Origin: Oikopleura dioica
Lineage: Eukaryota > Animalia > Chordata
DNA: 64,000 nucleotides
Assembly (NCBI GenBank): GCA_907165135.1
Contig: OU015568.1
Span: 11,966,001-12,030,000 of the forward strand
Direction: 5' to 3'
The position numbers were made by a program, and so were the translations under genes. Below, in pieces: positions 9,381 to 57,200 of the stretch (positions within the stretch are counted from its first letter, which is position 1; each line of letters starts with the position of its first letter). A model generated the notes under the pieces. The model saw only the letters and a program-made list of their open reading frames with translations, did no database searches and was not told the origin of the DNA.

Positions 9381-12300
9381 TTATGCGTGCAGCACGCGGA
9401 ATTCCTTGAACACATTGAGTGCTGGCTCAACTGTGCCTTGGGTGAACAGGAGCTCGCTCAGCTGCTTATCGTAACTGAGGACAGCCTGGAAAGAGGTTAA
9501 CTATGAATCGAAAGAAGATGACCTACAGTTTCGTTGCGAAGGAACACTTCCTGGAGACGCTCACAGGTGCACTGGAGCCAATGTCTGTTCTTCGCCTGTA
9601 CAAGAGTCTCTTGCGTATCCATCATTTCATCCTCTTCGATCGGAAGTCCGTGCTTGGCCACGTGCTCCGAAATCACTCCAATAAATCTCTAAACAAATCA
9701 TTGCAAATGAAAATTGAAAAAACAAACCTGGAAAATAACCAGGAAAAGGTTCTTCTGCTCTACTTTGGCATTCTCTAACTTCTCTCTGAACGTCTCAACT
9801 TCTGACTCTGACGGCGCAAACGCAGCGTAAGAGTCCATCATATCCTGAGTTTCTGCAGCCTCCGTTCCTACAGATTGAAAATGTATCAAACTTCAAAATA
9901 ATATCAAACCTTCTTCAAGCTTAATTGACGCCTGGTGCAATCGAGACTTGATACTTTCGTATTCATCTGTAACACGGTCGACGTGAGACTTCATTTTCGA
10001 AATTGTTCCATGAAGAATCTTGGAAAGAGTTAAAACTCCAAGATAAAGATGAAGGATCTCACCTCCCAAACAAAATATCTTTGGAAGTTGCTGGACATTT
10101 CCACTGAAAAGATCCATTGTGCAACTGAAGCTGGATCGACAATTTGAGCTCGGATGCACTTGTCGATCAAAACCACCTAGAAAATTTTGAGTCTGAGTCA
10201 GAATATCCAATATAATAGTAAAAGAACTTACGATCATTTGAGGATGATCCTTCCACATATCATACAAGATCTGGAGAAGCTTGACCTTCGCGCCTTCGTT
10301 CTTAGCGAGTCGCTTCAGCATAATATGATATTTTGATAGCGCTACAATATTTTTAAAAATAAACAGTTGAGATAAATTTACCGGCGAAAGAATGAGAGAA
10401 CGTCTTGGAAGCGATGAACATCAGAGTTTGAAGAAAAACGTCAAGTGCATTCGGGTTGTAGTCTAATAAAATGTTGATGAGATTTTCTGTGAATAATTTA
10501 CCCGGATTTTCTTCATTATCGGGCTCAGTAGGCTTTGGCACATCCTTTAGGATGTCAAAAATCTCTTCTGCCGTCGCCTTCGATCTAATGGCGTATTCTA
10601 ACTTTCTGGAACATGCAACAGCTGGATTCTCAGACATGCCATCGTCGTCATCGTGCTTGTATTTGAATCTAATGATAGGCTCGCTCGGAAGCAATGGCTC
10701 GAAGTCTTGTGGTACTGTCTCGTTGATCCTCTGATGGTAGCACAAACGTCTACATTTTTCGAGCACTTCTCGGATGAAAGCAGGTCGCGAAGATTCTAAG
10801 TCTTGTTGGAGACAATCTGCCCACTCATCCCAGGACCATCGGAACTGGAAATTAGACAAGTGATGAGCGAACCAGTTAGTAAATCGGTCAGCAGTTGGTC
10901 GAGTCAAATCGTCCAGCTTTTCAAAGATCAATTCTGTTGCCAGCGCGAGAACTTGTGGCATAAACTGGGGCTGTAGTTTGCAAAGCTCAATGAAAATCGT
11001 CGCAAAACAAATGTCAGGAACAATCGGAGTTGGGACTCGGAAGATGTACGAAAAGATGACCTCGACGATCATGTGATAGATCGGCACTTTAGATTTGTTC
11101 GAGTAGCTCAAAAGACGAGTCGCGCATTCTTTTCGCTCTCTATAATAAGTGAAGAAAAGAGTGGTTAGGTTCTCTTCGACGATAAATCGACCAATTGAGT
11201 CATTGGCTGGAAGCGGGGCTCCATCTTCTTCGCCAACCTCATCCATCTTGAAGAGGCGGAACATCATGAACGGCTTAGGGTAGATAAATTGAGGCTCATG
11301 AGGAGGAAGGACGAATCGAGGAAGGTTCTGTCGAACAGCTTCTGCCAAGATACCTTCGAATCCTATGTAAGGCCTTAGGATAAAGCCTTCGTCGTCCCAG
11401 TTGTTCTTTGCAAGATTTTTGATCTGACTCCAAAGAGAGTCGACATTGTCTTCCATTCGCTGCTGTTTTTCCGTTCTCCAAACACTCAAGAGGCTGAAAT
11501 GATCACGGTTTCGTTGAGCTACGTAGTCCCCCATCGTATTCATCAGGCGATCAACTTCTGCGGACTCGTCATTGTAAAGCTTTCGGCCACACCAAGGGAG
11601 AGATGAGAGACAGATGTAAACAAGGGCATCCTTTCGTCGCTGGGATGCATTTTCTTCGTCAAGGCAGTCAAGGAAGGAGTCGAAGAATGTAATGACGGTG
11701 CTGGCAGTGATCACACCACAGTTGCTAAGATCTTTATAGATGGTGGCAAGTTGATGCCTAATTGGAAGCAAATATGAACTATCGTAAGCGAGCGAACATG
11801 CGTCTACTGCTGGTAACCAGGGTAACCGGCAACCCAGGCGACCCTTAATAGGCGCGATAGATAAATATTAATCTGTGGGACTTTTTGGAATTAGGCTCCG
11901 TCAAGGTCAGGTCGTGTGTGGTGGGGTGTGGTCCTTGCCCCCACCATACAACTTTCATGCGGCGGAGGAGCAATGCCCCACGATGATCAGGAGCATAGTT
12001 GCTATGGGGAACGGTTTCCACGGAAATCTGAGCCAGTAAGGGAGTTTATGAAGCTCCGACTCTTTGGCAACAGAAATGTTCAAGAACACCTTCCAGAGCG
12101 GATTCCTGTCGATCCTTTATTCGATCGGCAGTAAGCCACTGCTGATCTGGGACAAAAAGGTTCGAAATGGTCACATCAAGAGAATCACCGATAACGACAT
12201 TCAATCCCTCGTACTTGAGATCGAAGGCACCAATGTCTCAACAACTTACATCACCTGTCCCGCAGGTATTTCGGTGATCTTCTCTGAATGAATTATTCGA

Positions 12301-13273
12301 CCGCTTTAGATCCAAAGAAAACGCTGGGAATCAAGCTTCCATTTCTCGTCATGATCATCAAAAACTTGAAAAAGTACTTCACATTCGAAGTCCAGGTAAA
12401 TTTAAGAAATTAAAAGTAATGGCATTAAATTGTGATTTTACAGGTGCTTGACGATAAAAACGTACGTCGAAGATTCCGCGCATCAAACTATCAATCAACA
12501 ACGCGTGTAAAACCGTTTATTTGCACAATGCCGATGCGATTAGACGATGGCTGGAACCAAATTCAATTCAACTTATCAGGTAATCCTTGAAGGCAGACAT
12601 TGCTCTTATCGACCGTTCAAGATTTCACAAGAAGAGCTTACGGAACTAATTACATCGAGACATTGCGTGTGCAGATCCACGCCAATTGCCGAATCCGCCG
12701 CGTTTATTTCTCGGATCGATTGTACTCAGAAGACGAGCTACCTGCTGAGTTCAAGCTGTATCTCCCTGTACAAAATAAAAAATAAACAGCTAGATAAAAA
12801 ATCAGTGTCACCATGTTCCTGTGATAAAACGAAACATAAAACGCACAGTTTCCCAGCGACAGGCGATAACGTTGTCACGAAGGTCGGCCATGATGTACTT
12901 CATGAATTCGGAACCGAACGAGTCGCTCTTCGAGTTGAGCCAGCCGACGAGCGTTGAGTAAATGGTGACCTTTTCCGGCATCTAAAGTTGAAAGATCAAA
13001 TTCTGACCCTTCATAAAGCTCGATTACCTGAACAGCAGCACATGCAAGAGTCTCAATAATGAAATCCTTGAAATTCGCCAAATCTGATTTCAAAACCTTC
13101 GCCAATCCCTCCAAATTCGACTCCAGCGATGAAGTGGACTTCTCGCCGATACGACAGATGAGCGACTCGAGCCTAGTTTCAATCTCACCGTGAGATTCCT
13201 GAGGCAATGATCGACCGCGATCGTCGTCCGAGGACGAAGAAGAGTCACTATCGGAATGACGTCTTCGGCCCAT
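9381..13273 (-). CDS. NCBP1: Nuclear cap-binding protein subunit 1 (CBP80), multi-exon
   Basis: [43 protein letters not shown] and FSHSF...MWKDHPQM are characteristic CBP80 segments. Confidence 0.96.
11813..12027 (+). promoter_or_regulatory. Cluster of RFX X-box-like sites upstream of CFAP20
   Basis: GTAACCAGGGTAAC (11813-11826), overlapping GTAACCGGCAAC (11822-11833), GTTGCTATGGGGAAC (11998-12012) and GTTTCCACGGAAAT (12014-12027) versus consensus GTNRCC(N0-3)RGYAAC. Also TCAAGGTCA at 11901-11909. Confidence 0.65.
12076..12785 (+). CDS. CFAP20: Cilia- and flagella-associated protein 20 (BUG22), 4 exons, nested antisense in an NCBP1 intron
   Basis: Near-invariant sequence [22 protein letters not shown]...[32 protein letters not shown]. 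Confidence 0.98.
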
Positions 13274-19400: not shown

Positions 19401-22400
19401 CGCAGAACGAAATCACGACTTACGCTGGATTGATTACTACGAGGCCGAGTACGTATTCCCACATTTAACCGAAATCGTTAAGTCGAAAGTCCCACAAAAA
19501 TCGCCTGTTCCTACTTCCAAACCGATGGAAAAGTCCGGGTCGAAGTCGCATGGGGGGAGGAAATCTTCTCAGGTCGCGTCGACTCCGATGGTTGCTATGG
19601 AAAAACCGCCAAGATCATCTCTATCACCTATTTTGGAAAGTAGACGCCGATTGGACATGGAAAATCTGGGAGATACAACCGCTACATCTATTTTGGACTC
19701 GTCGGTAGCTCCAGCCGAGCCGTCAGATCGCTGGTACTCTGGTGGTACTCTTTATGAAACTGCCGAGGACATGTCAGCTGATGCTACAGTGATTTCGGAG
19801 GTTGCTGCGCCCGACAATAGCCATATGTCAGTCGATAAACAAAATTCAACAGTAGTTGAGGGCTCAGCAACTGAAAACAGCAAGAAAAGAACCCGTCCAA
19901 AGTCTTCACCAGATCGTCAATACTCAGCCGGCGCCGATCCGAATGCGACTTTAACCGAAGTTGGAGCAGCTCATCTCCCGAAACATACAAAACGAGCACA
20001 CCGTGAAACGAGGCCCGTCGAACCTCTAAACATCGGCACAAACTCGGGTCAGTCATACGACTAAGCGCAAGTACTGCCCCACTCAGGTCCCCTATTCATC
20101 GACCGGGGCCTGAAAAGGTACGGAAATTATCACAGTTTACCGTCGCCGACGTATTTTGAGTTCTTCTACATGTGCAGCTACTCCTTCATGTCATCACCGC
20201 TCGGACATCACGAAAACTTCGCATCTGATTCAAGCTTTTTCCCAAAAAAGGGTTTTTTAACGCGAATCAGACTGCCTCGACGTTTCGAACCTGCCATGTT
20301 ACTCATCTTACGCTTATACTCCTGCAAAAATCACACACTTTGGCCTTAGAGGACGTTTCAGTCTCATGGGGGGTATTGGGATCTTAGATTCGTTAGACTC
20401 CCTCGTCCCCTAAGGTCACTTGCTTATCTAGATCGAGCTTTGCTCGGTCGCCGCCGTGTATTTCTCTCCATTCGGTAATTCACGCAGTTCGTGAATTAAC
20501 CTCTATTTTACTCCAGCTCGAAATACAGACGTCAAAGATACTTTACTCGTTTTCTTCACTCGTCCAGATATAGAGAGCAGGCAAACTACGCTAGAAGTGG
20601 GAGATTCAGCAGAAGCTAGGATCCCTTCACTAGTGAAATGTTTCACAACATTGGATGCAGCGGATTCCCATTGACTATCCGCATGTTCTGTTTGTCGAGC
20701 GAGAAGGTTGAGCGATCGGATCGATTCTCGGACGAGCTGCTCCGCAAGAGCTTTGCCAGAGTTCTTCGCGAGTCCAAGATGATCAGAATTACGCGAAACT
20801 GGAAGTTTTGCTGTGTAGCTCAATGCATCGGCCTTGGACTTGACAGAGATCATCTTAGGGAATTTTCCGAAGGATGGACCGTCACGTGACATCGTTTCAT
20901 TCACCATGAGTCGCAAAAGATTGCCATCAAAAGGATTGTGCATTCGACTTCCGTAGATGACTCCCTCGAGCATCTTCTCTGTGATTCCGGGGCGATTCCG
21001 CATCTTTGCAGAAACAGCAAGAGCCGCTCGGATATCGGCGACTGTAAAATCGTACTCTTGGCTCCAACCAAGAGTTCCAAATCCCTTTCGCTCAAGAATA
21101 AGTGAATGGAGAAGTGACAGCTGAAGATGATCAGAAGACATTCGAGAGGGCCATAAGTCGCTGATGCGCTCCATGCTTCTTCTGAGACCAGGAGGAGCTT
21201 CGACGCACATCTTAACTGAGCGCCGAAGAATCGCTGGTGAAAATGTTGAAACAGATTCTGAAGTTAACCACAAACGGAAATCTTCGTGAATATCAGGCGC
21301 AGCGAGGTCCCCTTCAAGCTTTTCAAGCCAGCTGGATGCCAAGTGACAGTTTTTCAACAAAAGCCATTTCCCAGAGCGCAGACATTCTTTGAACACGCTA
21401 AATGTCGCATCGTTGTCCTCTTCTAAAGCCGCCTCGACCAGTGCTTGGCCCTGTGCCTCGGCTAATCCAGCGATGTCATTGGAAGGATCAGCGCCGCCAG
21501 AGAGAATAAAAAGCTTTGGTGTGTCAGCACCACCGACTTGAGAGATGAATTCCATCGCGCCAAGGCCAGATTCAGGCATGTCTGCAATGCGCGATATTAA
21601 ATTTGAAGCAGAAGCGGCGAAACGATCAGGTCTTCGCTGAGCGATAACCGCCATTTGCTCAACCTTTAATGAGGTGTCTATTTTCAATAATATACTGATT
21701 CGATATTGAAATTCATAATTAACAAATAATATTTGTCAAATATATTCGAAATAACAGAACCTTCCCTTCGAAAAATTGCCACCTTTTGGACTTTCATTTT
21801 CTGGATATTCACCGGCGAGCCATGAAGAAAGCTCTCTTTCGCTTGCAGAGAGCTTTTGTGAGAACTCTCGATGCCCCGAAGTCATAATATTAAACCAGTC
21901 CTGACTGGGGAACTCTCTCGGGAATAGTGCTGCGACGAGATGAAGTGATGCTGAAACTTCATGATCTTTTGAAGCCATGTTTTGAACAAAACTGACTACG
22001 AGCTTGATGAATTCTGATTGTAGTTTGTCTACTGGCTTCTGATGGTACTTTTTGAGGATATGATCGAACATGACTGTAATACAGTGCAAGCCAGTTGTGT
22101 ACATGACATCCAAGCTTTGGATGTCTTAGGTGGGTTTCAAAATTACCGGGGCAAAACTACTTTTGCTGTATTTCCGACCAGAGTCATTCAAACCCAGACA
22201 TCCATATATGAGTCGACTTAGAATTTTATGATCTTTGTCTGGAACATTGGAATTTCCGATAACTCAAGAATTGTCGGATTTTTTATCGGTTTTTCCTAGT
22301 TTTTGAGTTATCGGAAAGTCCAATGCTCTAGCAAAAGAGCAGAAAATTCTGAGTCGATACATATATAGATTTCTGGGGTTTGTATGACTCTGATCGAAGC

Positions 22401-25400
22401 TAGAGGGAAAGTAGTTTTGCCCCGGTAATTTTGAAACCCACCTTGGATCTGAAAGAAACTCGTGGCTGCCGATGATGCCAGTGGCGAGTATTTGTTCCGC
22501 TCGATTGCGAGTTCTTCTTTGATTCTCGAGTTCTCATCGAGTGTTTGTTTGATCTCCTTGGCAGATTTCTTCGAGCTTTGGAGGCTGCTGATGAGCTTGT
22601 CGTTGTCAAGAATATTTCCCTCTGATTTGATGAGAGTTTCGAGGAGATCATTTTCAATTTTGATGATTTTGAGACGCAAGTCTTCTTCCTTCTTGACAAG
22701 TGTAGTCATTTTCTCCTCGAGTTCTGGCTGTTCAGCGCGCAGAGCGACGGACAATAGTTGATGTTCAAGACCTTTTCTAGTCATTGAGAAAATAACAGGG
22801 TTCGCAAGGCCAGATATTGATGGTAAATCATCGTATGTAAGAGTTTTTGATGCAAGGAGCAGTTTGAAATTGGGATTGATATCAATCACTTTGTCGCTGA
22901 TTTTGATGCTTGGTCGGGTGCCAATTGTGTGTACATTTGCTTTCAAGACTTCCACGATGAAAGCGGAAAGTTTGGTGATATTCTCAATCATCAACGTTTT
23001 ACCAAATCTTAGAGCAAGTTCGACACTTGACTGGAAAGCATCTGAATGCTCATCTACAGTTTCTATCTTTTGTTCGGCAAAGTAGGCCTTGAGGAAAGTC
23101 TGCGCCCGACCGGATTGATCGATGATCATGGGCGTTTTGGAGAATGACATGAGACTTTCTGTATTTTCCAAAGACAACTGATCGTTTGGCATGCCTTTGT
23201 GGTGATATTCAAGAAGCTTAGCTTCAGTAGAAAGGAATTCGAGGAGTTTGAAGTCTTGGCAATTGTAGCGGAGTTTCCAATCGCTAAATACTTTATTTCT
23301 CTCGACCTCGTGACGGCAAGACAGATAGACAATATGCGCTGCAGCGAGAAGAGATTGGATCGGAAGTTGAATTTGGGTCGTCTGCAGATTTTTAAGTCCT
23401 TCCTTCCATCTCGATTTTTCTTTCGACAAATCTTTTATCAACTTTCCAGCCTTGTGCAATCGCTTGTTCGCGTCTTCTAGGCGGTTTTCAAGTCTGGCTG
23501 CTTCGGAGGTTTTTTGTTCGAATTCACCGCGGAGCACGGCAACGCGTTCTTCTACAGTCGCTATTCCACTTCCTAGTTTCTCAACTTGCAATTCGGCAGC
23601 TCGGAGGCCTCGCAAGAGTTTTTGCTCCTCCTGCTCTAGCGGTGCGATGCGCTCGAGGACTGCTGCGTATTGCACATTCGCTGTTACCCATGCAGCCAGA
23701 GGGGCTGCAGCTACTGAAGCTCGTTTTGCAACGTCTGCTTGGAAAGATTTGGCTTTCTTTTGCATCAAAGCTTCAACAGCTTCTCGTGAGGAAGGAGGAG
23801 TGTTTCTCGCATCAAACTCTCGGATATCGTCCTTTACACCTCGTTTGCCAAGGAACTGCTTCATTCCTGTCCAGGAAGTATCATCATTTCCCATCAGCTT
23901 GAGTACACCTTCCAAAATATCTCGAATAACTTCAGGTGGAGCTCTCAAGTGTCGGATTTCATTGAGCGACGAAGTCTGGATATTGCCAACAGCTTCTTTT
24001 GCTTCATCAATGAGCGGCTGAACTTCACTCAATTCAGCTTCGATCTTTGCTTTTCGACGGTTGATATTTTCGCGTTCCTTGTCCGCGTCTTTCTTACGCT
24101 TCGACATTTCATCTTTTTGCGTTTCCGCGCCGCCCATCGCTTCTTGGATTGCTTGTAGAGCTGCATCAGCTTCTTCTCGTTTTAGTTTCAGAACCTTCTG
24201 CTGCTCAACAACATCCTTTTCGAGCTCTGCAACAGTCTTCCCTGCTTCTGCTAGTTTATGCAGACCAGTTTCCAGTTTAGTCGTCCGTTCAGTAAAGCTG
24301 TTCTTTTTGTTGTCGTAAATTTCGGAGATCGCTTTCAAGAACACTGCATATTGGGCTGGATTCCAACCGTGATCTCGGTGCAATTCTACCGCATGACCTG
24401 AAATTGTCTCTGTTCCTTCTCCAAGAGACAGTCTTTTGTTGGCGACGCTTCTCAGCGTCTCATGTGACCATCGCTGAAGAACGATAATTTTCGACTTTTT
24501 CGTCAGCGCTGGGCATTGATTCCAACACTCTGAGAGTGCCTTACTTCCCGTTTCTAGGGATAGAACTAGGCGGATGTTTTCTTTTGCTCGTTTGACAAAG
24601 AGATCTGTCGCAGTCATGCTCATTGCGCTTGCTTCAGCACGCAGTTGACTTTGATCTATTTCTTCCGCTGACCAAAGACCTGGGACTGTTCCCTGTGCAA
24701 GAAGAGAATTAGCGTAGACGTAAATTTGTCCATTCTCAAGGTGATGTGATTCGATAAGAATCACTACAGACTTGTTTTCAATAGAAGCAGCGCCAAGAGC
24801 GGTGCGGAAGAAATTCTTGACAGCTTTATCAGTGACATTCGTTACCGATGGGGACATTACGTCAAAATGGAGTGAATAGGCGCCTAGCTGGACAGAAGTT
24901 CGACGGCCAGATCCTGATGGACCGATAAGTACGATGTTGCCACCTTTATTTGATAGCTGAGATGTCACCGATACGATGGATTGCGTGAGTTGCTGCGATA
25001 AGACAAGCCCGCCAGTCGGCAAGTCTCGAATTTCACGTTCGAAGTTGCCTGCCGTTTCAAGCAAGCGCTTTTGCAGATCATTCATATCCATTGCATGCAA
25101 CTTTCCGTCTCTCTTAGGAAAGAAAAGCTCTTTCTCCATAGTTGCTCCTTGGAATGCTGTGTCGTAAATTCGCTCGTGATTTTCATCAATCATTCTGTCG
25201 CGGAAAATCCGATCAGCTTCAAACTTCCATATTGCCCAATGGTTTTTGCTCTTGAAGCTTTGACATGCTTTTGCCCACTGATTGAGATGACTCAAGGAAA
25301 AATTGTAGTGTGGCGCTTCCTTGGGTCCCAATTGCGCGGTCAAATTCGAGAAAGCGCGAGCAGTACTATGCGACATATCGTCGTACGGACCATTTGGAAA

Positions 25401-38634: not shown

Positions 38635-38775
38635 TCTTCTTTCTCTCTAGATCTTCTTGTTCTTCGGAATAAGCTCTTTTTTATCCTTTTGAGAACTTTC
38701 CCTCAATTTTTCCTTCAGCTCCAGCGGCGCGGCGGGGAGGCTCGCTGATTGGCCCGATTCGAGGCTCTTTCAGTA

Positions 38776-39056
38776 CCATGAAGTTTTACTCTTTTGGGAG
38801 AAAGCCTCTGGCCCCCTTCCCCGTATCCCGCGCAAATCAGTGTCGGGGAAGTCTAGAAAATTTCTTTAACGCTTCCTTGGCGGTTTAAAAGAATCTCGAG
38901 ATTCTGAAGAACAGAATCTGGAAAGTCCGAGCCAATAACAATGGTTTGCGCGGCTTCTCCCCCAAATTAGGCGCGCCCAGAATGAGCTACTGAAAAAGTC
39001 AGTGCATTTTTCAGTAGCTCAGATTCTCGATCTCCCTTTAGAGCTCAACTCCATGG
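38776..39056 (+). mobile_element. 281-bp MITE with TA target duplication (Tc1/mariner-like), copy 1
   Basis: TA|CCATGAAGTT...AACTCCATGG|TA; inverted copy at 49366-49646. Confidence 0.85.
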
Positions 39057-39630
39057 TATTTCTTCAACGCGAAGACCATAATGATTTTGACAAGAAGGTT
39101 CTGGAAATTCTAGCGCCGAGAAATTAGCCATAAATGTGTCCTTTTCCCCTGACTCATGTGTGAAAATGTTTTAAAATTTTTTTCCTCGGTGACTTTGTTT
39201 TGATAAAATATTCTCTCAAACAATGTTTTCATTATAAAATGTTCAAACAATTGTTACTTCTGTTATTGCAGGCTTGTCATTATGGGAATTCAGACAATAC
39301 TCTAATAACTTATTACTAATATTATTACTAAGTAATAAGAATTGAATATTTAAATTACATAAATCTGTATGTTAAAATAATTAAACATGTTTATTAAATG
39401 TTCCAAAAATTTCTTCAATGAATTCTTTGATGTTCATTAATGCGTTCCTCAGAAGTAGAAAGTATGAAAAATGTTTGATTGGTCGATTTTGAATTATAGA
39501 TTTTTTGGGCACGCGCCGCGCCGCCGCACACCAAAATGAGCCACCACTTTTGCCAACTGTGAACCTTTCTATTTCCCAAAGAATCAACATTTGAGAAGAA
39601 GAAGAGAAAGAAAAATCAAATCAGAAACAA

Positions 39631-42600: not shown

Positions 42601-45214
42601 GCCGAATGGCGCCAATTCAGAAGGCTCAAATAGTGAAACTCGCAAGAGCACATGAAACTGGCAATGATCTGACCCTCGCAATCGGTGACGGGGCTAATGA
42701 TGTATCGATGATTCAAGAGGCCCATGTTGGTGTCGGCATTTTCGGTTAAAAACAGATTTATTTTTTGTTTTCATCATCATCTTTTAGGAAAAGAAGGACG
42801 AGCTGCTGCTCAAAATGCAGATTATGCTATCCCTCGATTTTGCCATCTGGAAAGGCTTCTTCTCTTCCATGGGAGAATGTTCTACGACCGTCTTGGTAAC
42901 CTGATTCAGTACTTTTTCTACAAGGTATTCCTCCATCAATAATTGAACAACCACTAACATCGCTAAGAACCTGACATTCGTTCTCCCACAAATTCTCTTC
43001 CAGCTCCAATGTGGCTTTTCCCAAACAACCCTCTACGATGGCATCTATCTAACAATGTACAACACGGCCTTCACTGCATTCCCAGTGCTGTTCTACGGAA
43101 TTCTTGAAAGAAATCTACCTGAAGAATCTGTCGAGAAAAAGCCACACATTTACAAAGACAACGCAAATAATAAGTAAGTTTGGTTTGAGTCAGTTTGTGG
43201 CAAAATGGGTCGGTCTTCAAGGGGGTGTAGCTCAAATGGTAGAGCGCTCGCTTAGCATGCGAGAGGTACCGGGATCGATACCCGGCATCTCCACACCTTT
43301 TGCTTTTGCTGATAAGAAGTAGTTACTGATAAGAGTCGACCTCCTTAATTTATACTACTGTTTCCTCTTTTCAATGAATAAGTGAGAGCTTTTGCATCAT
43401 TTTTCCGACAAAAATGATTCAGAGGAAATTATAATGAATTAAATGATTTCACAGTCTCATCAGTTCTACTGACAGCAGCAAATCATTATCAGTAAAACTA
43501 AAAGGTGTGGAGATGCCGGGTATCGATCCCGGTGCCTCTCGCATGCTAAGCGAGCGCTCTACCATTTGAGCTACACCCCCTTGGGGGGATGGCAACAGTG
43601 CCCCTATGATAGCGGCCCTATCTGTAACTTGCTAATTGTCTTCATTTAGGCATTTGTCCATGAGAGCGTTTGTTCGCTGGACCGTCGAAGGTTTCCTTCA
43701 TGGATTGATAATTTATTGTTGGTCTTCGATCTACTACCACGGCAGGCCGTCGGACAACTTCCAGTTTGGTATTGGCTGCTACACGAGCATTGTTCTTGTG
43801 GTCACAGCTAGACTCGCTGTTGAGACGTCTTGCTGGACGTGGCTAACGCATTTGGTTCTCTGGGGCACTATCCTTAGGTTTGAATGGCTCGCTGGACCGG
43901 GCGATATTATTCTCTTTTTTTAGCTACTTCATCTTCGCATTCATTTACTCCTCCACTGTCTGGAGCTTCTCCGCCCATGGCGGCAACGTCTACTGGCTGA
44001 TGCAGCGTCAGTGGGGCTCCGCATACACCTGGCTTCTCATACCCATCATGCTTGTAATTTGCATTTTGCCCATTATTGCCCAAAAAACCTTCATGAACGA
44101 ACTCTTCCCCAGCGAGACGCACATCGAAATGGTAATTTTTCAAGTCAAATTTTTATCAGAAAAAAGCTCATTTTAAAAACTTTTAAAATGAAGGAAAAAA
44201 AGGCGAATCGTTTGTAGAGTAGAATCATTTCGGTGTTTGTCAAAAAGACGGAAATTGTTAAATTCAGCGTCAGGTGAACATCCAGTCCTCTCACGAAGAC
44301 TACACGATATCTCCAGTTTACCAGCTCAATCGCCTCATCCGCTGGTGGCAAAGAAAACGCGGCCACGAAGATGCCCAGCCTATACCTATCCACCAAAGTC
44401 AATCTTATGACGGTATTTTCTGTAGGTCTGACGATATGAACAGATTTGGCATTTAAAAAGAATTAACTAGATTCGGAACTAGAAAGATGAATTTAAAAAA
44501 CTTTTTGCAGGCAAAATTCTGACTTGGTCTGATTTGTAGCCCTATAGAAAGCCCGTAAAATTTCGAGTCGATTCGACCAAGTCGTTTTTGAAATTTTCTA
44601 GAGAATGACGTCACAAATGACGTCAGAAAATTCCAAAAAGCCGAAACTTTGAGTCTTATTTTTACAGTGTTCCTGATCGAATTTTTCGGTGTTCTATAGC
44701 ACAAATGAAAGCTTATTAAAAACTGTACTAAGGTTTTAAGGATTAGGAAAAAAAATTTGAAAAATTTGGCTCTAGAATTTTCCGAAAAAAAAATTTCGAG
44801 CAAATGAAAATCCAAGAAAAACCTTAGTACAGTTTTTCATAGGGATCAATTTGAGCTATAAAACATGAGAAAATTCCGTCAAAAAGGCCCAGGAAAAGTG
44901 ACTCAAAGTTTGCCCGAAACGGCTATTTTTGCCAACTTCTAGCGTCATTTATGACGTCATCGTCTGATTGTTTTGGTCTGAAACTAGTCCAGTCGACTCA
45001 GAATTTTACGGGCTTTCTGATGAATATAAAAACAGGCAAAGTCAGGATTTTGCCTGCAAAAAGTTTTTTAAATTCATCAAAGCATCGTAGTCAGAACCTA
45101 GAGAAAAGCCCGTCCATCAGAGTTCATTAAATTCCGAGTCGCTTTTCCAAATTTAGGCTCACCTACACTTCTTCAACGAAAAGACCAAATAGGCATGATC
45201 TTCATCTATTGTGA
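39631..45214 (+). CDS. ATP11: P4-ATPase phospholipid flippase, ATP11 class (3' exon uncertain)
   Basis: [75 protein letters not shown]. Confidence 0.92.
43221..43293 (+). tRNA. tRNA-Ala(AGC), intronic in ATP11
   Basis: GGGGGTGTAGCTCAAATGGTAGAGCGCTCGCTTAGCATGCGAGAGG...CATCTCCA cloverleaf; T4 tract downstream. Confidence 0.96.
43508..43580 (-). tRNA. tRNA-Ala(AGC), inverted copy
   Basis: Reverse complement of 43221-43293 with one substitution; T4 tract downstream. Confidence 0.96.
44486..45078. mobile_element. 593-bp foldback MITE with GATGAATT termini, in the last ATP11 intron
   Basis: 32-bp perfect TIR GATGAATTTAAAAAACTTTTTGCAGGCAAAAT with internal symmetry (AAACTGTACTAAGGTTTT / AAAACCTTAGTACAGTTT). 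Confidence 0.88.
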
Positions 45215-47408: not shown

Positions 47409-48078
47409 ATGGGAGTAACAGTTGTCTTTCAATGGGAGCTTGTCGATGGGCAAACCCACCAGCAAGCAATTCAAGAGCTACACGGAAGAATCAACAATAC
47501 AGGAGCAGTGCAAGAGGGGAAGTTTTACTATGAATCGAAATTCTACCAAGCGTCTGATTCTTCCACTACTCGAGGGAAAGTCTTGAGCTGATAGTTAAAT
47601 CTTAATTTAAAAAGTGACTATTGAAGACTTTTTCTAAAGATTTTTACACACTGAAGACTTCGGAATACCCGGTTACCGTCTTTGCCAGAGTAGATGATTC
47701 GACAAAAGTATGATCTCAAAAATGAGTAAAAAGGAACATTTTATTAGGATAAAAATTCGTGTATCCAATGCGATAGCCCGATGGAAAGTCTACTAATCAA
47801 ACTCCGCGAGTTTTTCACACCGAAACGAACTTTCGAAATCAGAGGAACAAGATTCAAACTTGCGGACTTTTGGATAAGACCTGGAATCGTCACGAGTAGT
47901 GGATCGAATAAATGTGTTACGGTTGAAATTGAATACACTCCAAGCGTAAGTTCCATGATTCGCTTTTCTAAGAGATTATATTTTCTTTTAGTACTTTGCT
48001 GATGATTGCTGGCCTTTGTTCTCTGAGCTTGGGTCGTATATTCTGAACCGGCCGATTGATGAGAAACCGCCGACATGA
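47409..48078 (+). CDS. MED20: Mediator subunit 20 (3' end uncertain)
   Basis: MGVT.V...GAVQEGKF, SEYP, EIRGTRFKLADFWIRPG, VEIEYTP...DCWPL. Confidence 0.85.
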
Positions 48079-48168
48079 ACGGATTATGAAATTTAAGAGG
48101 CAAAGAATTTTTTTGAATATTATATTTACAGGGATCATTGAACAGACAGACAGATATACATTAATAAG

Positions 48169-48516
48169 TTACTCAGAGTCAGAAGCGCTGCCAACAGAAT
48201 TGGCTTTAGTATTTGGGCTGGCTTTTCGAAGTCGGATTCGTCGGTTCTGGAACCAAACTTTGACGGTGTTGATTTCAAGGCCGAGCTGACTGGCGAGATT
48301 GTGTCGTTCTTGACCAACAAGATATTGGCATTTGTTGAATGCGATTTCGAGCTGCTCGAGTTGGAACTTGCTGAAAACGGTTCGCTTGCGAGATCTCGAC
48401 GATTTCTTTTCAGAAGTGTTTGGAAGTGGGAGGTTGTATTCAGTCGAAAGCCCGAGAATTCTGTCGATTCCAAAAGCGAGGTCGATGGATCGGATGGTAG
48501 TTGGAATGGTAGCCAT
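48169..48516 (-). CDS. Single-exon Not/Noto-type homeobox protein with eh1 motif (115 aa)
   Basis: FGIDRIL eh1 motif; homeodomain RKRTVF...QYLVGQERHNLA...VKVWFQNRRIRLRK. TATA-like sequence ~110 bp upstream. Confidence 0.8.
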   Translation of the reverse strand: MATIPTTIRSIDLAFGIDRILGLSTEYNLPLPNTSEKKSSRSRKRTVFSKFQLEQLEIAFNKCQYLVGQERHNLASQLGLEINTVKVWFQNRRIRLRKASPNTKANSVGSASDSE

Positions 48517-49365
48517 TTTTTCTTGAAAGCTCTTGTAGTTTTTGAAGAGTGTTGAAAGTTCGTTTCGATTTCGAGTTAATCGAGTGAGTCTGTGATTTGA
48601 TGATGAATCCAAATTCTGAGCGCGTTATAAAGGTGAGATACCGGTGGCGCCAAACTAATTTTTGCGCGACTTTGAACGAGCCCAGCTGGCGGCAATCACC
48701 CGGTGGCGCTGGGAAGATGGGCGTGATTGATATGCAGTAGCAATCACAGGAGTTCGAGAAATTGTGACTAATTACTCCCTACTGATTGCGCGCGCTGATT
48801 GCTTTGATGCGGCGTACCGCGCGGTCGAGTGCGAAATTGATCCAACAACTTTCCCAGAACAGTATTGACCCACTTTCCGATATGATTTTACGCGTACAAA
48901 TTTTTACTGGGGTATGAGTGTGAAAGTTAAATTTGAATTGCACCACAGGAAGCGTGTCCGAACATGGCGAGACTAATTGAGAAATGAAAAAATATGTTTA
49001 TTTTTTTTTTGGAATCAAGTCATAATTGACAAGAATAATTTTGTGACCACACATTGCATTTAGTTTTACAATTTTTAAAATGAAACGAGATACAGTCTGA
49101 GGAATAAACCAAACGCAGGGACAAAACTTATGCTAATTAATCCTTAATAAAGTAATGGAAAACAACAAGCAATTCAACCCTGGCATGATGGTCCAGCAAT
49201 ACGTCGAAATCTTCTCGAGAAAAGCCACCACTCAAGCAAATTTCCAACAACCGATGAAGCAAGAGCAAATTCAAGCGTACAACACGCAAATGTAGATCAA
49301 ATTCTATTCCGTTTACTGTCCACTGCCAGAGTAAACATAAACTGCTTGTTCCTTATTCATTACTA

Positions 49366-49646
49366 CCATGGAGTTGAGCTCTAAAGGGAGATCGAGAATC
49401 TGAGCTACTGAAAAATGCACTGACTTTTTCAGTAGCTCATTCTGGGCGCGCCTAATTTGGGGGAGAAGCCGCGCAAACCATTGTTATTGGCTCGGACTTT
49501 CCAGATTCTGTTCTTCAGAATCTCGAGATTCTTTTAAACCGCCAAGGAAGCGTTAAAGAAATTTTCTAGACTTCCCCGACACTGATTTGCGCGGGATACG
49601 GGGAAGGGGGCCAGAGGCTTTCTCCCAAAAGAGTAAAACTTCATGG
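49366..49646 (-). mobile_element. 281-bp TA-flanked MITE, copy 2 (inverted)
   Basis: Reverse complement of 38776-39056 with no differences seen by eye; TA on both sides. Confidence 0.85.
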
Positions 49647-49690
49647 TATATTCCTGCAATAAAATGAAATGTTGAAAATTCAGTGACAAA

Positions 49691-51084
49691 ATGAGTCGGA
49701 CTCTCGCTGGTAAGACGGTTGCTAGGCGGGCCAGGACACCGGTTAGAATGACGGAAGGCCAAAGAATTACAGAGCTCGTAAGAATTTATTTACTGGATGG
49801 TTCAAAAATAAAATAAGGGTTCTCATTCAATCGGATCTTCAATAACTCATCATATTTACTCTTCCGATCGTTTTCGCCCAGAACCTCTGATCGCACCAGC
49901 TCAAAAAAGAATAGTCTACGAGAACCACACTCCGACAATTCTTGCTCACAAAATGGAGGAATCATTTCACGAAAAACTCGAAGCTGCCCGAGCGAAACTT
50001 GTCTTTGGCCAAATCCGTGCAATTGTTGCATTCATTATTACCACAGGAAGTTGCATGTATTTTTATTTGAAATACACTGGCGAAAAGCAAAAGGAACGAA
50101 TTTCAAGAACTGCTTCGGATATTGGTCGTGGAGCTCTTAGGCGCGGATTTGAAATATGAAAACATTTTTATTAAAAATTATTGATTTACATCCGCGATAA
50201 AGCAATCAAGAACTAGTGGAGCAGGCGAATAAACTCTCCCTGAACATCGTGCACGGGGTTCTTAATGACCCCAAAATTAGGTCAGAAGTGACGAGATTAC
50301 TCTCCGACGTTGTGCAATCCGGTCAAGTTACAGGCATCGGCCGGCCAAATCTCCAAAATCCCAATTTCGAAGACGATAAGCAATTAAGCTACTGTTGCCA
50401 TTATTCGGGCTGAAAGATTTGTCGATCGAAATGATGAGAATCGTCGCTTATCCTTGTAAATAAAATCCTGAATGATCCAAACATTCAACAATCAGTGGGC
50501 GCCTTGCTGCATGACCAACTTTTGAAAGCACTCGCAGACGAGAAGATCCAATTAGCCGTCCAGCGACTTGTCAAGGATGTTTTTCTGTCGGAATCCATCA
50601 CGGAAACCGTAAAAACCGTACTTGGCGACGCTCTGGTCAGTGATTATGTGAAATCAGCGGCCACGGCGGCAGGAACTCATGCGACTCAAGGCAAAGGTCA
50701 CAATTAACAAAATGTAGAGTCTGCCTCGGTTTTGGGGACCCATTCTACCGATAACCGGAAACGATTTTATTTGACCCATTTAAAAGCAATCATCGCCGAC
50801 CAATCGGTGCAAGACAATTTGTCAGGTACCTATTCTACGAACTTTCGCCCTTTGAAGCTCGCTTTTATCTCTAATTACGATCATCAGATGCGATTTATGG
50901 TGCATTGAAACCGTGGCGATCGCGATCCCCGCGGCAAGTTATTACACCTTCGCCCGCGCGACCCGCCAAGAAAGCTGATGCTATCGATGAAACAGATACT
51001 GTCACTGATAAAAGAAGTTCTGCTGCAAGGACGCCCGCCGCGCGCGTTCAAAGCGAGCCGACACCCGAGCCGAGGATCGACTGA
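49691..51084 (+). CDS. Unknown single-TM protein with helical L.D..I...V repeats, possibly mitochondrial
   Basis: Chain of spliceable exons: Arg-rich N-terminus, TM IRAIVAFIITTGSCMYFYL, repeats VLNDPKIRSEV / ILNDPNIQQSV / ALADEKIQLAV / IIADQSVQDNL. Confidence 0.6.
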
Positions 51085-51279
51085 CAAGTTCAAACACATA
51101 AATCGCACCCATTAATCGGTTGTTCAATAATTTCATGGCTATAAATTAGGCTCTGAATCACACTATCTCTACGGGATATTTCTACTACCTCCTATCAAGC
51201 CTCCTTTCAAGTTCACACCGAGTTCAAAATCGATACCTTCATGTACCAAGACAATTCTAACCGGAAATCGAGCTTTAGT

Positions 51280-52715
51280 ATGACCGACGAACTCAAAACT
51301 GTCCTCCAGAATCTGGTCCTCAAGCAAAAAATTGGTGGACTTCTTGGAGTCACGATCATTGACAACTTAGGAAACGATTTACACAATTCTCGTGCCCCAA
51401 AACTGGGATCATGAGTCATTTTTGAAGAATATATGCTGGGTTTTATTTAGTCTTTAGTTTGTCCAAGAGAAATTCGGCTGTTGCTGAAGAATTCTCCTTT
51501 GACAACGTTAACTCGTCGGTTTTTTCCATCGGGAATTTCCAGTGGAGGTCGGGCACCTTGGTCATCGTTAGAGATGTTTAATTTTAAATGCTTACCGTAT
51601 TGAGCGTTAGACAAGAGAGGCGTCACTCTTCGAGTTTCTTCTTGATAAACGTTGAGGCCGCTGAATGGCAAATCTCATTAATTTGATTGTGGCGATCAAT
51701 GGCTTACCGCGATTTAGCATTTGACCTGTCATCGCGGTGAAGCTTTGGATCGTAATTGCAGTCAGCGTTGAAAATACGGTTGTACTGGCGGTTGTCGATG
51801 TTCTTTCGGGAGTGGCTCGTCGTGTCAAACTCGTAGTAGGCGTTGTTGAAGGGGCCTGATTTATTAGACAGGGATCAAGTTAGATACAAATACCTTCGTT
51901 TTGTGCCTTGACCTCATCATCTTCCAGCCAGGTTCCATTTTTCTGACCGTTTCGCATTGCGATAGTCTTAGTTATTCTCTCTTCTCGGTGACAGTACTCC
52001 ATCCACTGCCCTGTAAATTTATCCCGTAAATATTGAATTATTTAATCCAGTACTCACCCATTTTGGTGCCCGGACTGGGACTTTCTCGGCCATAATTGGA
52101 CATGCGCATCTTTGCAGAAATCTAAGTTTCCAAAACTGAGGATTTTCTCGCTGCAAACTTTGTTTAGCAGTTATGTTCTAGAAGATAACGTCAAAGTGTC
52201 TGTGTATCCGCTCTATCCATGGCTACCGCATTTGCATATAGAATCAAAGAAACTTTCGTACTTATGTTGATTATTAATTGGAAAAAACGGTAGTTCTGTA
52301 AATCGTTTTATCAGGAGTCCCAATTTTTCAGCAGCTCCATCAGTCTTTCGAACAAGCTGAGCGCAAATTTGAGCTCAGTTCGTCCAGATTTCTTTCGCTC
52401 AACTCAAACTCTTCAGGTAAACAAGCCAAATGAACTGTTCATCACTTTCTTTAGGCATTGACAAGCAAATCAACCAAGGCGAAAACCTGTATAATATCGC
52501 ATTCGGCACCAAGTACCAAACTGTTCAAATCCGAAAACATCCGCTTACGATAATCTTTCTTGCCACCTCAAGTGCTTCCACTGGTTACCCGCCCATTCAG
52601 CAAAAATAACTATTTTTTTATTTCAGGATTGATTTTAAAGGAGTCGAAAGAGCTCGATACTTACTTTTCTCAGCTGCAGACGAACGCGAGAACGCACCTC
52701 CAGATTCAAAACTAG
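51280..52715 (+). CDS. LAMTOR3: Ragulator subunit MP1, 4 exons
   Basis: Spliced MTDELK...VTIIDNL|GVPIF...KYQTVQIRKHPLTIIFLATSSAST|GLILKESKEL matches LAMTOR3 (DRDGVP, YQVVQF..LPL...ASSSANTGLI). Confidence 0.88.
51447..52093 (-). CDS. CFAP90: C5orf49/CFAP90 axonemal protein, nested antisense in LAMTOR3 intron 1
   Basis: YDPKLHRDDR.NAKS|GLNVYQEE.RR...LSNAQYGK...RVNVVKGEFF matches the C5orf49 motif. Confidence 0.85.
52213..52226 (-). promoter_or_regulatory. RFX X-box-like site upstream of CFAP90
   Basis: GTAGCCATGGATAG on the minus strand, ~120 bp before the ATG. Confidence 0.55.
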
Positions 52716-54268: not shown

Positions 54269-57200
54269 CTAAAAGAAAATAGATGATAGGGAAAATGATT
54301 TCTGCTCTGCAGGCTGCTCGGCAGTTTCAGTATCGCCTGCTTCAGTGGGTGCTGGGTTAGTTTCGGTGGTGGGTTCGGCTACTTGCTCGTCTTCAGGGTT
54401 AACGTCGGGCAATTCAGATGCCTCGGTGGCTAGTGATGTGGGTTAGATGAATTACCATAAGAATTTTTTGGCCGAAAAAAATTTTTTTGAGATAAGAACA
54501 TATTCTGAAAGCCCAAGTCAAAATTAGTCGATTCCCAAATTTCTAGGGCTCAATGACATCATTATGACGTCATTTATGATGAATAAATGTCCGAAAAGGC
54601 TCCAAATTCATGAAAACTTGGAATGCTTTTTGAGGCGGTTTTTGCTGGAAATAGATTTTTCTATTGATGACATGTTGTTCGCTATCAAAAACTACGTAGG
54701 GACCCGAGGTTTATTTTTCGAACCGACAGGTTTCAAAAATTGAACCGGTCGGTAATGGTTGATATTCAATGGTTTGATCCCGGGTCCCTACGTAGTTTTT
54801 CATAGAAAATCCGAATCCGTCGAGAAAAATAAAATTAAAAAACGTTTTCGGCTCGAAAAAGCGTTCCAAAGACAAAATTTTCAATTCAGCCCGATGACGT
54901 CATAATGACGTCATCTGACCCTAGAATTTGGTGATTCTGTATAACTTTTATCGGGCTTTCAGAATATACCAATATCTCAAAAAAAATTTTTTTGCCCGAA
55001 AAATTCTTATGGTAATTCATCGTTAGTAAATGTGAAATTCTGCTGGGATTAGTTTAAATGTTTTTCTAAATTCTTACCTTCAGTACCGGCCTCGGAGGCT
55101 TCCGGCATAACAGTCTTAGGGTCGTCAATCTGTGGGGTTTCTTCTGTGATCGACAGTTCCGCATTGTCAGTAATCAGGTCTTTATTCACTAGTTCTTCAT
55201 TCACCTCTTCGTGAATTTCGGTCACATCTGCGGTCATATCTTCAGTAACCTCGCTAAGCGCGTTTGTTTCTGAGTTGTTATTCGCATTTGCGTTTTCCTC
55301 GATGTTGAGCGTCTTGTTCTCGGGAACAATGATTTCCTCTCGCGCTTCTTGGGAGCTAACTTGGGAAGCGGTCTCATCACCCTTTCGCCTGAAGCTGACC
55401 TTGGTCGCTAAAGCGTTTTCGATGAGAGTAACATCTTTGTTTTCCTCGTCGTCAGAGTCTTTCAAGTCCTCCTTGAAGTTTTCAATGACCTTCATTTTAT
55501 CCGAAACGATAGAGAATGTTCGACCTTGGGTCTCTTCAACCGGCTGTTTTCCTCCAGAGATCCAGGACCAAACTGGCCAGATGATTCCACCCTCGGCGAT
55601 GCGCTTCTCCTTTTCTTCCTCGAGGGACTTCTCGGCATTCGCGAGCGCTTCCATCATTCTTCGCTTGACCTCTTCATTTCGTCTGTATTCTTCTTCTGCA
55701 CGGATTCCGAGCTCGCAAATCGAGTTGACCATGTTTTCGATGTCAATTTCTGCAGGAATTTCATCAATAGCAATGACGATATTTTCGCCAGCTTTAGCAA
55801 GTGTGAATCCTACTCCAGAGTCGAGTTCTTTGAGACACCGGAAGACCTCTTGATTGATCACATCAGCGGGCGCGGCCTTTGGGATAATGGCGATCGCGCC
55901 AAGCTTGAGATCCTCATTCGGTTCTAAGAAGAGCTTGATATCGCTGCGGGCGCTCGTTGATCGCCACAGATCCCACGCTTGATCGAAATACGATTCTATT
56001 GATGGCAAGACAGAGTCGATGGTTTCTTTCATGAGATTGAGATCCGCTTGTTGAGCACCTATTCAAACATAATCAATTTATTTTACCGAATAATAGTTTC
56101 TATTTGAGTGGGAACCATTCAAACATCTCATAAGACGTACCCTTGAGAGCAGTGACCAGCGATCGGATTCTAATACACGATCCCTCGTCATTCATCGTCT
56201 CCTGACAATCGAGCTTGTCGCATTTGTCCTGCAGGGTCATGAGTAGCTTGTAATTGCACACGTCGAGCAGCGCGTCCGTAAACTCGTTAGTGACAACTTC
56301 GGTCTTCGGAGCCCATTGAAAGACAGTCACTAGTGGAGGGGCTGGCGGAGCCGTCAACTGTTTCATCGTATCCTTGACAAAATCACCGAAGGAGTTGTAA
56401 TCAGCGTCGCTGTGCTCTTCCACGCGTTCTGAAATTACACGGTATATTTTTCAAGTGCTTGTTACACTGAGATAAGAAGGGGCCGCGTACCTTTTACGGA
56501 AGAGTTAACATCCGCGAACTGTTTGAGTACCAATACAAGGTCGTTTGTGATTCGCATCGCGTTGTTTATCCTGTGGCGAATATTCGCCGCGCCGGAGAGC
56601 TGAAGCGCAGTCCAGACTGGCAGCAAATCGTCCTCCCAGGGTTGGCAGCGGATCGGGTTGTTGGCGGAACGCATGCAGAAGAGGCTTGGCAAGCCGAGCA
56701 TGCAGAAGTCAGACGGTTTCTAGTGAAAGTATTAAATATAAGTATAGAAAAATAATTTGTGATTTACCAAGGTAATAGAATTAGCGGCGAGAACAGGAGC
56801 GCTTTTTGATGGAATCGTGAAATTTCCAAGCATAGGAATGTTATCGCCCTCAAAGTGGCACCAGATCTGGAACTTTCCGCAAATATGGAGCAAGGATTCA
56901 ACCTAAACGCCGTTACACAAAGCTCTCTTTAGAAGATATACCTTGTCATCAATCGCACTTTCGCTTCCAAAAGAACCGATCAAAGCGGTGGGCTCTTTTT
57001 GAGGATCGTTAGCGTCAGCCTGCACTTGTTTGAAAAGCTTATTCACATCAAAAGGAGTCTAAAATTTGTGTTTCTTTTGTTGGAAAAAGCACAAATGTAC
57101 CTTGTCTCCATTTATTCCATCATTTATTCTATGGACATTAAAACACTCTTTTGGCAAGCCAAGTTCGTTCTGAAAGAACAGAATCCAAGCGGCTGGAATA

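What the first reader, a model, noticed from the sequence alone, without database searches (positions are those of the whole stretch)
51371..52314. Same architecture a second time: CFAP90 nested antisense in a GA-AG intron of LAMTOR3
Seen: LAMTOR3 joins as GAC AAC TTA G|gaaac...atcag|GA GTC CCA (DNL-GVP vs DRDGVP). This is a 944-nt phase-1 GA-AG intron holding the whole CFAP90 gene antisense, with an X-box-like site at 52213-52226. Both nested cases share AG|GAA donors, phase 1, ~1 kb length, an antisense axonemal gene, its stop near the host donor and its X-box near the host acceptor. Inference: two cases in 64 kb suggest a systematic arrangement, such as packing ciliary or sperm genes into introns of operon genes, or intron creation by gene insertion at AG|G sites.
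Basis: partly seen in the sequence, partly recalled or inferred. Interest (0 to 1): 0.78.

Follow-up and report, generated by a model that had tools for sequence, protein, structure and literature searches.

The report
Genes nested in GA-donor introns
In a tiny marine tunicate, a complete cilia gene with its own start site and a promoter motif known from sperm-forming tissue sits backwards inside a housekeeping gene's intron that begins with the rare GA signal, and two more such pairs nearby (one only predicted) suggest that the arriving genes likely create or shape these unusual introns.

Summary
RNA joins LAMTOR3 across 944 nt, and the only AG-ending placement is GA..AG, phase 1. The whole five-exon CFAP90 transcription unit lies antisense inside. 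Nesting and GA donor are kept in a second Oikopleura dioica lineage (75% DNA identity), and an outgroup reads through this position with no intron, so the intron looks lineage-specific.

The X-box is weak and its core is not conserved. The conserved promoter carries TCTAGA exactly 45 nt before CFAP90's mapped start, the published male-germline promoter code.

I found a third: a homeobox gene antisense in a predicted 1,076-nt phase-1 GA-AG intron of MED20, untested by RNA. That makes 3 of 3 gene-hosting introns GA against a 9.1% genome background, and 0 of 3 tRNA- or MITE-filled introns. It supports a GA link but argues against a cilia-only rule. Phase 1, ~1 kb and stop-near-donor follow largely from geometry.

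Nested genes and GA introns are each known; their coupling was not found in my searches but rests on one window.

The parts
51280..51370 (+). LAMTOR3 exon 1 (M1 to first base of G31)
   Evidence: identical to N-terminus of P0003
51371..52314 (+). LAMTOR3 intron 1, 944 nt, GA-AG, phase 1, hosts CFAP90
   Evidence: RNA joints; same donor and acceptor positions in L001, 936 nt
52315..52715 (+). LAMTOR3 exons 2-4 (52315-52416, 52455-52583, 52627-52715); introns 2 and 3 are short GT-AG
   Evidence: Pfam PF08923 34 bits on full-length P0003; PDB LAMTOR3
51447..52109 (-). CFAP90 coding region, 163 aa, exons 52109-52058, 52010-51894, 51855-51708, 51660-51596, 51556-51447
   Evidence: introns 1-3 in RNA contig X1; intron 4 from P0130/P0001 and L001; PF15074
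52137..52137 (-). CFAP90 transcription start (A in TCAGT context), mapped in the second lineage and carried over by alignment
   Evidence: 160 reads of X9 end here in adapter sequence; alignment; adapter identity recalled
52177..52182 (.). TCTAGA core-promoter element, 45 nt upstream of the CFAP90 start in both lineages, inside a gapless 68-nt block that is 81% identical
   Evidence: promoter class from PMC6389100
52213..52226 (-). X-box-like site, one good half, core not conserved
51371..51446 (-). CFAP90 3' end: AATAAA overlapping the stop, poly(A) about 20 nt later, then a conserved TGTGTAAAT abutting the host donor
   Evidence: 91 poly(T) loose ends in X9; 14 of the first 15 intron bases identical between lineages
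11732..12818 (-).
   Evidence: junction FITD-LSN in P0146, P0141, P0137; no direct read test
12076..12785 (+). CFAP20, four exons, antisense in the NCBP1 intron
   Evidence: PF05018
11813..11842 (.). X-box cluster upstream of CFAP20; holds the only two perfect matches in the window
48077..49152 (+). Predicted last intron of MED20, 1,076 nt, GA-AG, phase 1, hosts a homeobox gene (third case, not RNA-tested)
   Evidence: MED20 identity; same layout in L001, 996 nt
48172..48516 (-). Intronless homeobox gene, 114 aa, antisense inside the predicted MED20 intron
   Evidence: PF00046 E 2.6e-20; conserved in L001

Best explanation
CFAP90 is a self-contained 0.7-kb transcription unit (own start, TCTAGA at -45, five exons, own poly(A) site) lying antisense in a GA-AG intron that is spliced out of LAMTOR3, and this intron was likely created or reshaped by the arrival of the CFAP90 cassette in the Oikopleura dioica lineage. 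Shown: the splice junction, the nesting, both transcripts, conservation in two lineages, and no intron at this position in one outgroup. Inferred: (1) the cassette landed in coding sequence at an AG|G site and was tolerated because this animal's spliceosome accepts GA donors; (2) antisense orientation hides its splice and poly(A) signals from the host; (3) the donor is and stays GA(A) because it abuts the nested gene's 3' end, whose U/GU-rich downstream element reads A-rich on the host strand, so one short stretch serves both genes; (4) CFAP90 fires mainly in the male germline while LAMTOR3 is read as part of an operon, so the two rarely collide. No functional link between the two proteins is needed.
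For: Junction and both transcripts. Conserved nesting: L001 and colinear DNA contigs of X15 and X16 running from LAMTOR3 exon 1 into CFAP90. Outgroup: the P0161 cluster (7 members, contigs up to 18,970 nt) reads DRQG-API without a break and ends later in apparent intron read-through, while O. dioica-type fragments P0153-P0155 all leave the frame after DNLG. GA link: 3 of 3 protein-gene-hosting introns (one predicted) against 6,392 of 70,283 (9.1%) in the annotation (PMC7072748 supplement); 0.091^3 = 7.5e-4, at least 3 of 6 insert-bearing introns p = 0.012. 0 of 22 other tabulated introns are GA. Donor-proximal bases are unusually conserved: 14 of 17 against 5-12 of 17 in 9 other orthologous introns, and 13 of 15 at the MED20 donor. 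Nested stops lie 33-95 nt from the host donors. TCTAGA at -45 in both lineages, about 0.3% by chance. Host and nested depth swap between libraries: CFAP90 58-153x vs LAMTOR3 1.5-3.9x in X9, 2-10x vs 20-23x in X12. A MITE-made intron in the dynein gene shows that insertion makes introns in this genome. A second, near-identical CFAP90 copy is annotated on another chromosome.
Against: n = 3 from one window; two cases were chosen after the pattern was noticed, and the one independent case (p about 0.09 alone) lacks RNA support and has AT, not AG, before its predicted donor. No empty version of the intron and no un-nested CFAP90 in an outgroup was seen, so the order of events is not shown. No shared target-site duplication. 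The NCBP1 host intron seems present in another larvacean: its genomic ORFs P0008/P0128 start right at the junction, so it is at least older than O. dioica. GA donors are threefold commoner in new introns anyway (PMC4122922). Short non-GT donors occur here without nesting: MED20 intron 1 is GG in the window and GA in L001. The outgroup could have lost the intron. Tissues of X9 and X12 are unknown.
Confidence: 0.45

Rival explanations
1. Neutral colonisation. A small intron was gained first in the O. dioica lineage, happened to have a GA donor, and CFAP90 later translocated into it. The run of GA donors in this window is chance.
For: This is the standard route for nested genes (PMC3488318). 76% of mapped introns are new and GA is threefold commoner among them. 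Gene translocation is rampant between these lineages (PMC11067885); L001 itself has 2.5 kb of extra coding DNA just upstream of LAMTOR3. The 4-nt junction repeat is within the ordinary range.
Against: 3 of 3 GA is unlikely at 9.1%. Typical introns are about 47-49 nt, a small target. It does not explain the conserved donor-proximal bases.
Confidence: 0.35
2. Ciliary or sperm genes are selectively placed in introns of operon housekeeping genes under RFX control, with mutually exclusive expression.
For: Two of three nested genes are axonemal. CFAP20 has the only two perfect X-boxes in the window. CFAP90 has the male promoter motif, and host/nested depth swaps between two libraries. Broad host with tissue-specific, often testis, nested gene is a known trend in mammals (PMC11694760).
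Against: The third nested gene is a homeobox gene with no TCTAGA in 384 nt upstream. CFAP90's X-box core is not conserved. The two ciliary genes use different promoter codes. Anti-correlation was not measured.
Confidence: 0.12
3. The third case is not nesting. MED20 is split: the first part ends at its conserved stop and the last 46 codons are made from a separately trans-spliced message, leaving only two GA cases.
For: The stop codon after exon 4 is conserved in both lineages, the acceptor lies 2 nt before an ATG as at trans-splice sites, and the exon ends in AT. The last exon had no MED20 hit on its own.
Against: The GA join keeps the frame in both lineages and retains codons with synonymous-type divergence up to the donor. 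Exons 3 and 4 reach only about residue 175 of a 212-aa protein, so a C-terminal exon of about this size is expected; the last exon is 46 of 46 residues identical with 10 synonymous changes.
Confidence: 0.2
4. Artefact: mis-assembly, or a GT donor misread as GA.
For: Public annotations break LAMTOR3 and NCBP1 at these introns (P0002, P0004, P0006, P0131).
Against: RNA joints allow no GT placement, and independent DNA contigs of another lineage show the same layout.
Confidence: 0.01

Closest known systems
Intron-nested antisense protein-coding genes (flies, nematodes, vertebrates; review PMC3488318, passages read; Montibus 2024 PMC11694760, passages read)
   Same: Whole gene inside one host intron, opposite strand, broad host with tissue-specific nested gene, often the first intron, no functional link between products.
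   Different: The nested unit fills nearly the whole intron; the host intron is non-canonical and looks lineage-specific instead of being a large old intron that was colonised.
GA-AG introns of Oikopleura dioica (PMC7072748 passages and supplement rows; PMC8008620 and PMC4122922 passages; Denoeud 2010 not held, cited through these) and of Eurytemora affinis (PMC5714493, part 1 of 2 read)
   Same: GA donor with AG before and A after, AG acceptor, spliced accurately, typical of newly gained introns.
   Different: About 20 times the median intron length and filled by a gene; no link between GA donors and nested genes appeared in the passages read.
TCTAGA male-germline core promoter of O. dioica (Danks 2018, PMC6389100, passages read)
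   Same: Motif 45 nt upstream of a sharp start, TT context, no spliced leader; the paper reports such promoters inside operons.
   Different: Here it drives an antisense gene inside an intron, not a downstream operon gene; male-specific expression of this gene was not tested.
Transposon-made (introner/MITE) introns (mechanism recalled; Huff 2016 seen only as a reference line)
   Same: A DNA insertion becomes a precisely spliced intron using junction bases; an example sits in this window's dynein gene.
   Different: The insert is a host gene cassette with no terminal inverted repeats, and no common target-site duplication is shared by the three cases.

Membership tests
Nested antisense gene | Whole transcription unit inside one host intron | tested here: met
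   start 52137 and poly(A) about 20 nt past the stop, both within 51371-52314; ends mapped in the second lineage
Nested antisense gene | Host is spliced across it and both genes are transcribed on opposite strands | tested here: met
   joints and stranded depth in X9, joints in X12, X1, X2
O. dioica GA-AG intron class | GA donor with upstream AG and downstream A, AG acceptor, RNA support | tested here: met
   for LAMTOR3; NCBP1 by protein only; MED20 has AT upstream and no RNA test
O. dioica GA-AG intron class | Newly gained intron position | tested here: inconclusive
   absent in one outgroup; loss in that outgroup not excluded; absence in human is recalled, not tested
CFAP90 (PF15074) | Profile match above curated cut-off | tested here: met
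   82.4 bits vs 32.6 on P0130, identical to the window's protein; SNYG motif at the N-terminus as described in PMC10973386
CFAP90 (PF15074) | Located inside ciliary doublet microtubules | not testable with these tools
   reported for mammalian CFAP90
LAMTOR3 (PF08923) | Profile match and alignment to solved LAMTOR3 | tested here: met
   34 bits vs 25; PDB 5y39_C E 7.5e-9, both on full-length relative P0003
TCTAGA male promoter | Motif 40-50 nt upstream of a sharp, non-trans-spliced start | tested here: met
   45 nt in both lineages
TCTAGA male promoter | Male- or testis-specific expression | not testable with these tools
   library tissues are not given
RFX X-box promoter (CFAP90 site; consensus recalled) | Two good half-sites, above chance | tested here: inconclusive
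RFX X-box promoter (CFAP90 site; consensus recalled) | Conserved between lineages | tested here: not met
   core differs, zone 60% identical against 81% for the TCTAGA block; a differently spaced X-box-like reading in L001 is possible
Introner/MITE-made intron | Terminal inverted repeats | tested here: not met
   self-comparison of the window shows no repeat in 51371-52314 at E 1e-8
Introner/MITE-made intron | Target-site duplication supplying the splice sites | tested here: inconclusive
   4-nt AGGA repeat, kept in both lineages, but 1 of 23 other introns has 5 nt and 6 have 3 nt
Operon gene (host) | Short same-strand spacing, polycistronic RNA, spliced leader | tested here: inconclusive
   43 nt to the next gene and 14 X12 reads bridging both genes; no spliced leader among the loose ends shown, 45 of which were not displayed

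The most novel reading that the evidence does not exclude
In Oikopleura, nested genes arise mainly by a gene cassette landing in an exon and becoming the intron itself, with the cassette's 3' flank supplying a GA donor. Gene-hosting introns would then be strongly GA-enriched genome-wide, and one permissive splice rule would link genome scrambling, intron gain and gene nesting.
Probability: 0.3. Interest if true: 0.8.

Novelty: new variant of a known kind. Interest (0 to 1): 0.52.

Why it matters
How new introns arise and how nested genes arise are normally treated as separate questions, and nested genes are assumed to colonise existing introns. If gene-hosting introns here are GA-enriched and lineage-specific, a single insertion can do both. 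Chromosome-level genomes of several O. dioica lineages make this directly testable. Practically, public gene models are broken at these introns (LAMTOR3 and NCBP1 seen here, MED20 predicted), so such nested pairs are probably under-counted. If the enrichment fails, this is an ordinary nested gene in an ordinary Oikopleura GA intron.

Tried and rejected
No whole genome is held, so no genome-wide count. A GT donor for LAMTOR3 intron 1: rejected. A GT donor for the MED20 host intron: none in frame anywhere in exon 4 of the window; L001 has one GT option where the window has GG, rejected because it drops 9 conserved codons. X-box as the main CFAP90 element: not conserved. Phase 1 as a signal: 264 of 610 AG-ending coding positions are phase 1. 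AGGA repeat as proof of target-site duplication: within range. Searches for the last MED20 exon and exon 4 alone found no MED20 match, so its assignment rests on position, size, conservation and recalled resemblance. The extra ORFs in L001 1352-3868 had no Pfam hit (3 of 3 tested). The metagenome scan gave 1 locus from 97 candidate stretches. Both read-laying runs went to the LAMTOR3 region before the MED20 case was found, so NCBP1 and MED20 junctions have no direct read test. Literature: 'Oikopleura' + 'nested genes' gave 3 papers (passages of 2 read, neither on this link, the third seen as a listing only); a search with the four gene names gave nothing relevant among 10 listed of 15; Denoeud 2010 and its supplement were not available and may bear on GA introns by length or nesting. 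Earlier scan notes: nothing relevant. The intron table is my own selection of mappable genes; one CFAP20 intron end is off by one base there, and the L001 start for LAMTOR3 intron 2 is off by one in the 17-nt comparison.

Full report
Organism. The window's proteins are identical or nearly so to models that their source names as Oikopleura dioica Okinawa annotation (P0002, P0130, P0146). No whole genome was held, so all counts come from this window, one related locus, public reads and papers.

The junction. LAMTOR3 exon 1 ends at 51370 and the frame resumes at 52315. RNA skips exactly 944 nt in 7 reads of X12 and in one mismatch-free contig of X2; the other two runs laid show no joint there. 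Because AGGA occurs on both sides, the joint fits five placements. Only GA..AG ends in AG, and none begins with GT. Full-length proteins P0003 and P0005 read DNL-GVP; P0003 matches PF08923 and solved LAMTOR3. Public models of this gene are cut or mis-started at this intron (P0002, P0004, P0150).

The nested gene. CFAP90 (PF15074) has five exons on the minus strand. Three introns are seen in RNA contig X1; the fourth, 39 nt and in frame, follows from P0130 and L001. In X9, 160 reads stop at one position and continue into what I recall as the template-switch adapter plus one cap-derived G, placing the start at the base aligned to 52137. 91 reads carry poly(A) about 20 nt past the stop. Both ends were mapped in the second lineage and carried over by alignment. 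The whole unit lies inside the intron and shows no spliced leader.

The promoter. TCTAGA lies 45 nt upstream of that start in the window and in L001. Danks et al. (PMC6389100, passages read) report this motif 40-50 nt upstream, preferably 45-48, in 71.6% of male-specific promoters and 73.5% of testis-specific genes. With 16 sites in 64 kb, a hit in that 11-nt slot has about 0.3% chance. The 68-nt block from -67 to +1 aligns without gaps at 81%, like the exons (80-94%) and above the introns (55-69%). RFX input is possible but not shown. Male-specific expression is inferred from the motif only; depth of host and nested gene swaps between X9 and X12, whose tissues are unknown.

Conservation and age. 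L001, about 75% identical in DNA, has the same nesting, a 936-nt intron, the same GA donor and the same AGGA on both sides. DNA contigs of X15 and X16 run from exon 1 straight into CFAP90. If the window is the Okinawa lineage and L001 another, the arrangement is about 25 million years old (12-41; PMC11067885, passages). A more distant relative (P0161 cluster, 7 members, about 40% identity, taken to be another larvacean by inference) reads through this position without a break on genomic contigs and leaves the frame much later. The host intron is therefore most simply a gain in the O. dioica line; loss in the outgroup is not excluded.

NCBP1 has a 1,087-nt phase-1 GA-AG intron (12818-11732) holding CFAP20 antisense. 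The junction is present in P0146, P0141 and P0137, and N-terminal fragments from two lineages read through the same donor. CFAP20 has the only two perfect X-box matches in the window and no TCTAGA. ORFs P0008 and P0128 from another species start at this junction, which suggests this intron is older than O. dioica; whether it is filled there is unknown.

A third case. MED20 has an intronless homeobox gene antisense between exon 4 and a conserved 46-codon last exon, in the window and in L001. No GT donor keeps the frame in the window. The join that keeps all conserved codons in both lineages is 48077-49152: GA-AG, phase 1, 1,076 nt (996 nt in L001). It is untested by RNA, has AT before the donor, and a split gene with trans-splicing remains possible (about 20%).

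Is GA linked to nesting? Background is 6,392 of 70,283 introns, 9.1% (PMC7072748 supplement); non-canonical introns are 11-12%. Gene-hosting introns: 3 of 3 GA. Introns filled by a tRNA pair or a MITE: 0 of 3 (one read by eye). Of 24 tabulated introns, the only 2 GA are the gene hosts; outside that table MED20 intron 1 has GG (GA in L001) and two donors in the upstream membrane-protein gene read as GC. The nominal chance is 7.5e-4 for 3 of 3 and 0.012 for at least 3 of 6, but two cases were picked after the fact and the independent one alone gives about 0.09. GA is also threefold commoner in new introns (PMC4122922, passages). I read this as suggestive, not established. Phase 1 adds little (43% expected). 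Length and stop-near-donor follow from fitting a small antisense gene into a tight intron.

Mechanism. Shown: splicing at GA, autonomous antisense transcription, conservation, absence in one outgroup. Inferred: the cassette arrived in coding sequence and was tolerated as an intron, and the donor region doubles as the nested gene's downstream 3'-end element. The first 15 intron bases are 14/15 identical between lineages at LAMTOR3 and 13/15 at MED20, and nested stops lie 33-95 nt from the donors. Against a single insertion mechanism, the junction repeats are not shared. Neutral colonisation of a small new intron remains a close rival.

Novelty. Nested genes, GA-AG introns and TCTAGA promoters are each described. 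My searches and the passages read showed no report that gene-hosting introns are GA-enriched or born with the nested gene; Denoeud 2010 and its supplement could not be read. Verdict: real, new variant of a known kind, interest 0.52; about 30% chance of the stronger reading, which would merit 0.8.

Noticed in passing
window 47412-49295 (+), with 48172-48516 (-): MED20 with a homeobox gene antisense inside its predicted last intron (GA-AG, phase 1); a long, highly conserved non-coding block (about 48600-48900) lies upstream of the homeobox gene. A Not-like assignment is recalled only.
   Followed up: partly
window 22125-22441 (-): A 317-nt GT-AG phase-1 intron of the dynein heavy chain gene consists almost wholly of a palindromic MITE; it looks like a transposon-made intron.
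   Followed up: partly
window 14212-20629: An LTR retrotransposon (RT, RNase H, integrase) sits in a coding exon near the 3' end of the dynein heavy chain gene, with an apparent 4-nt target duplication; its two LTRs are identical except for a 71-nt segment.
   Followed up: partly
window 43174-43649 (+): Two tRNA-Ala(AGC) genes in inverted orientation inside a 476-nt GT-AG intron of a P4-ATPase-like gene.
   Followed up: partly
P0129 (source name chr1.g3941): A second annotated CFAP90 copy on another chromosome differs from the nested copy at 2 of 163 residues; its DNA context could not be read.
   Followed up: no
L001 1352-3868: About 2.5 kb with several ORFs lies between the membrane-protein gene and LAMTOR3 in the second lineage and is missing from the window; no Pfam hit in 3 ORFs tested.
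   Followed up: partly
window 38774-39058 and 49364-49648: A 285-nt sequence occurs twice, inverted and 100% identical, about 10 kb apart; the right copy is absent from L001.
   Followed up: no
window 49955-51110 (+): An unidentified predicted membrane-protein gene with two GC-donor introns by my placement of RNA joints.
   Followed up: no
window 44486-45078 and 54446-55021: Two more palindromic MITE-like elements; the second lies in a GT-donor intron of a PDXDC1-like gene.
   Followed up: partly
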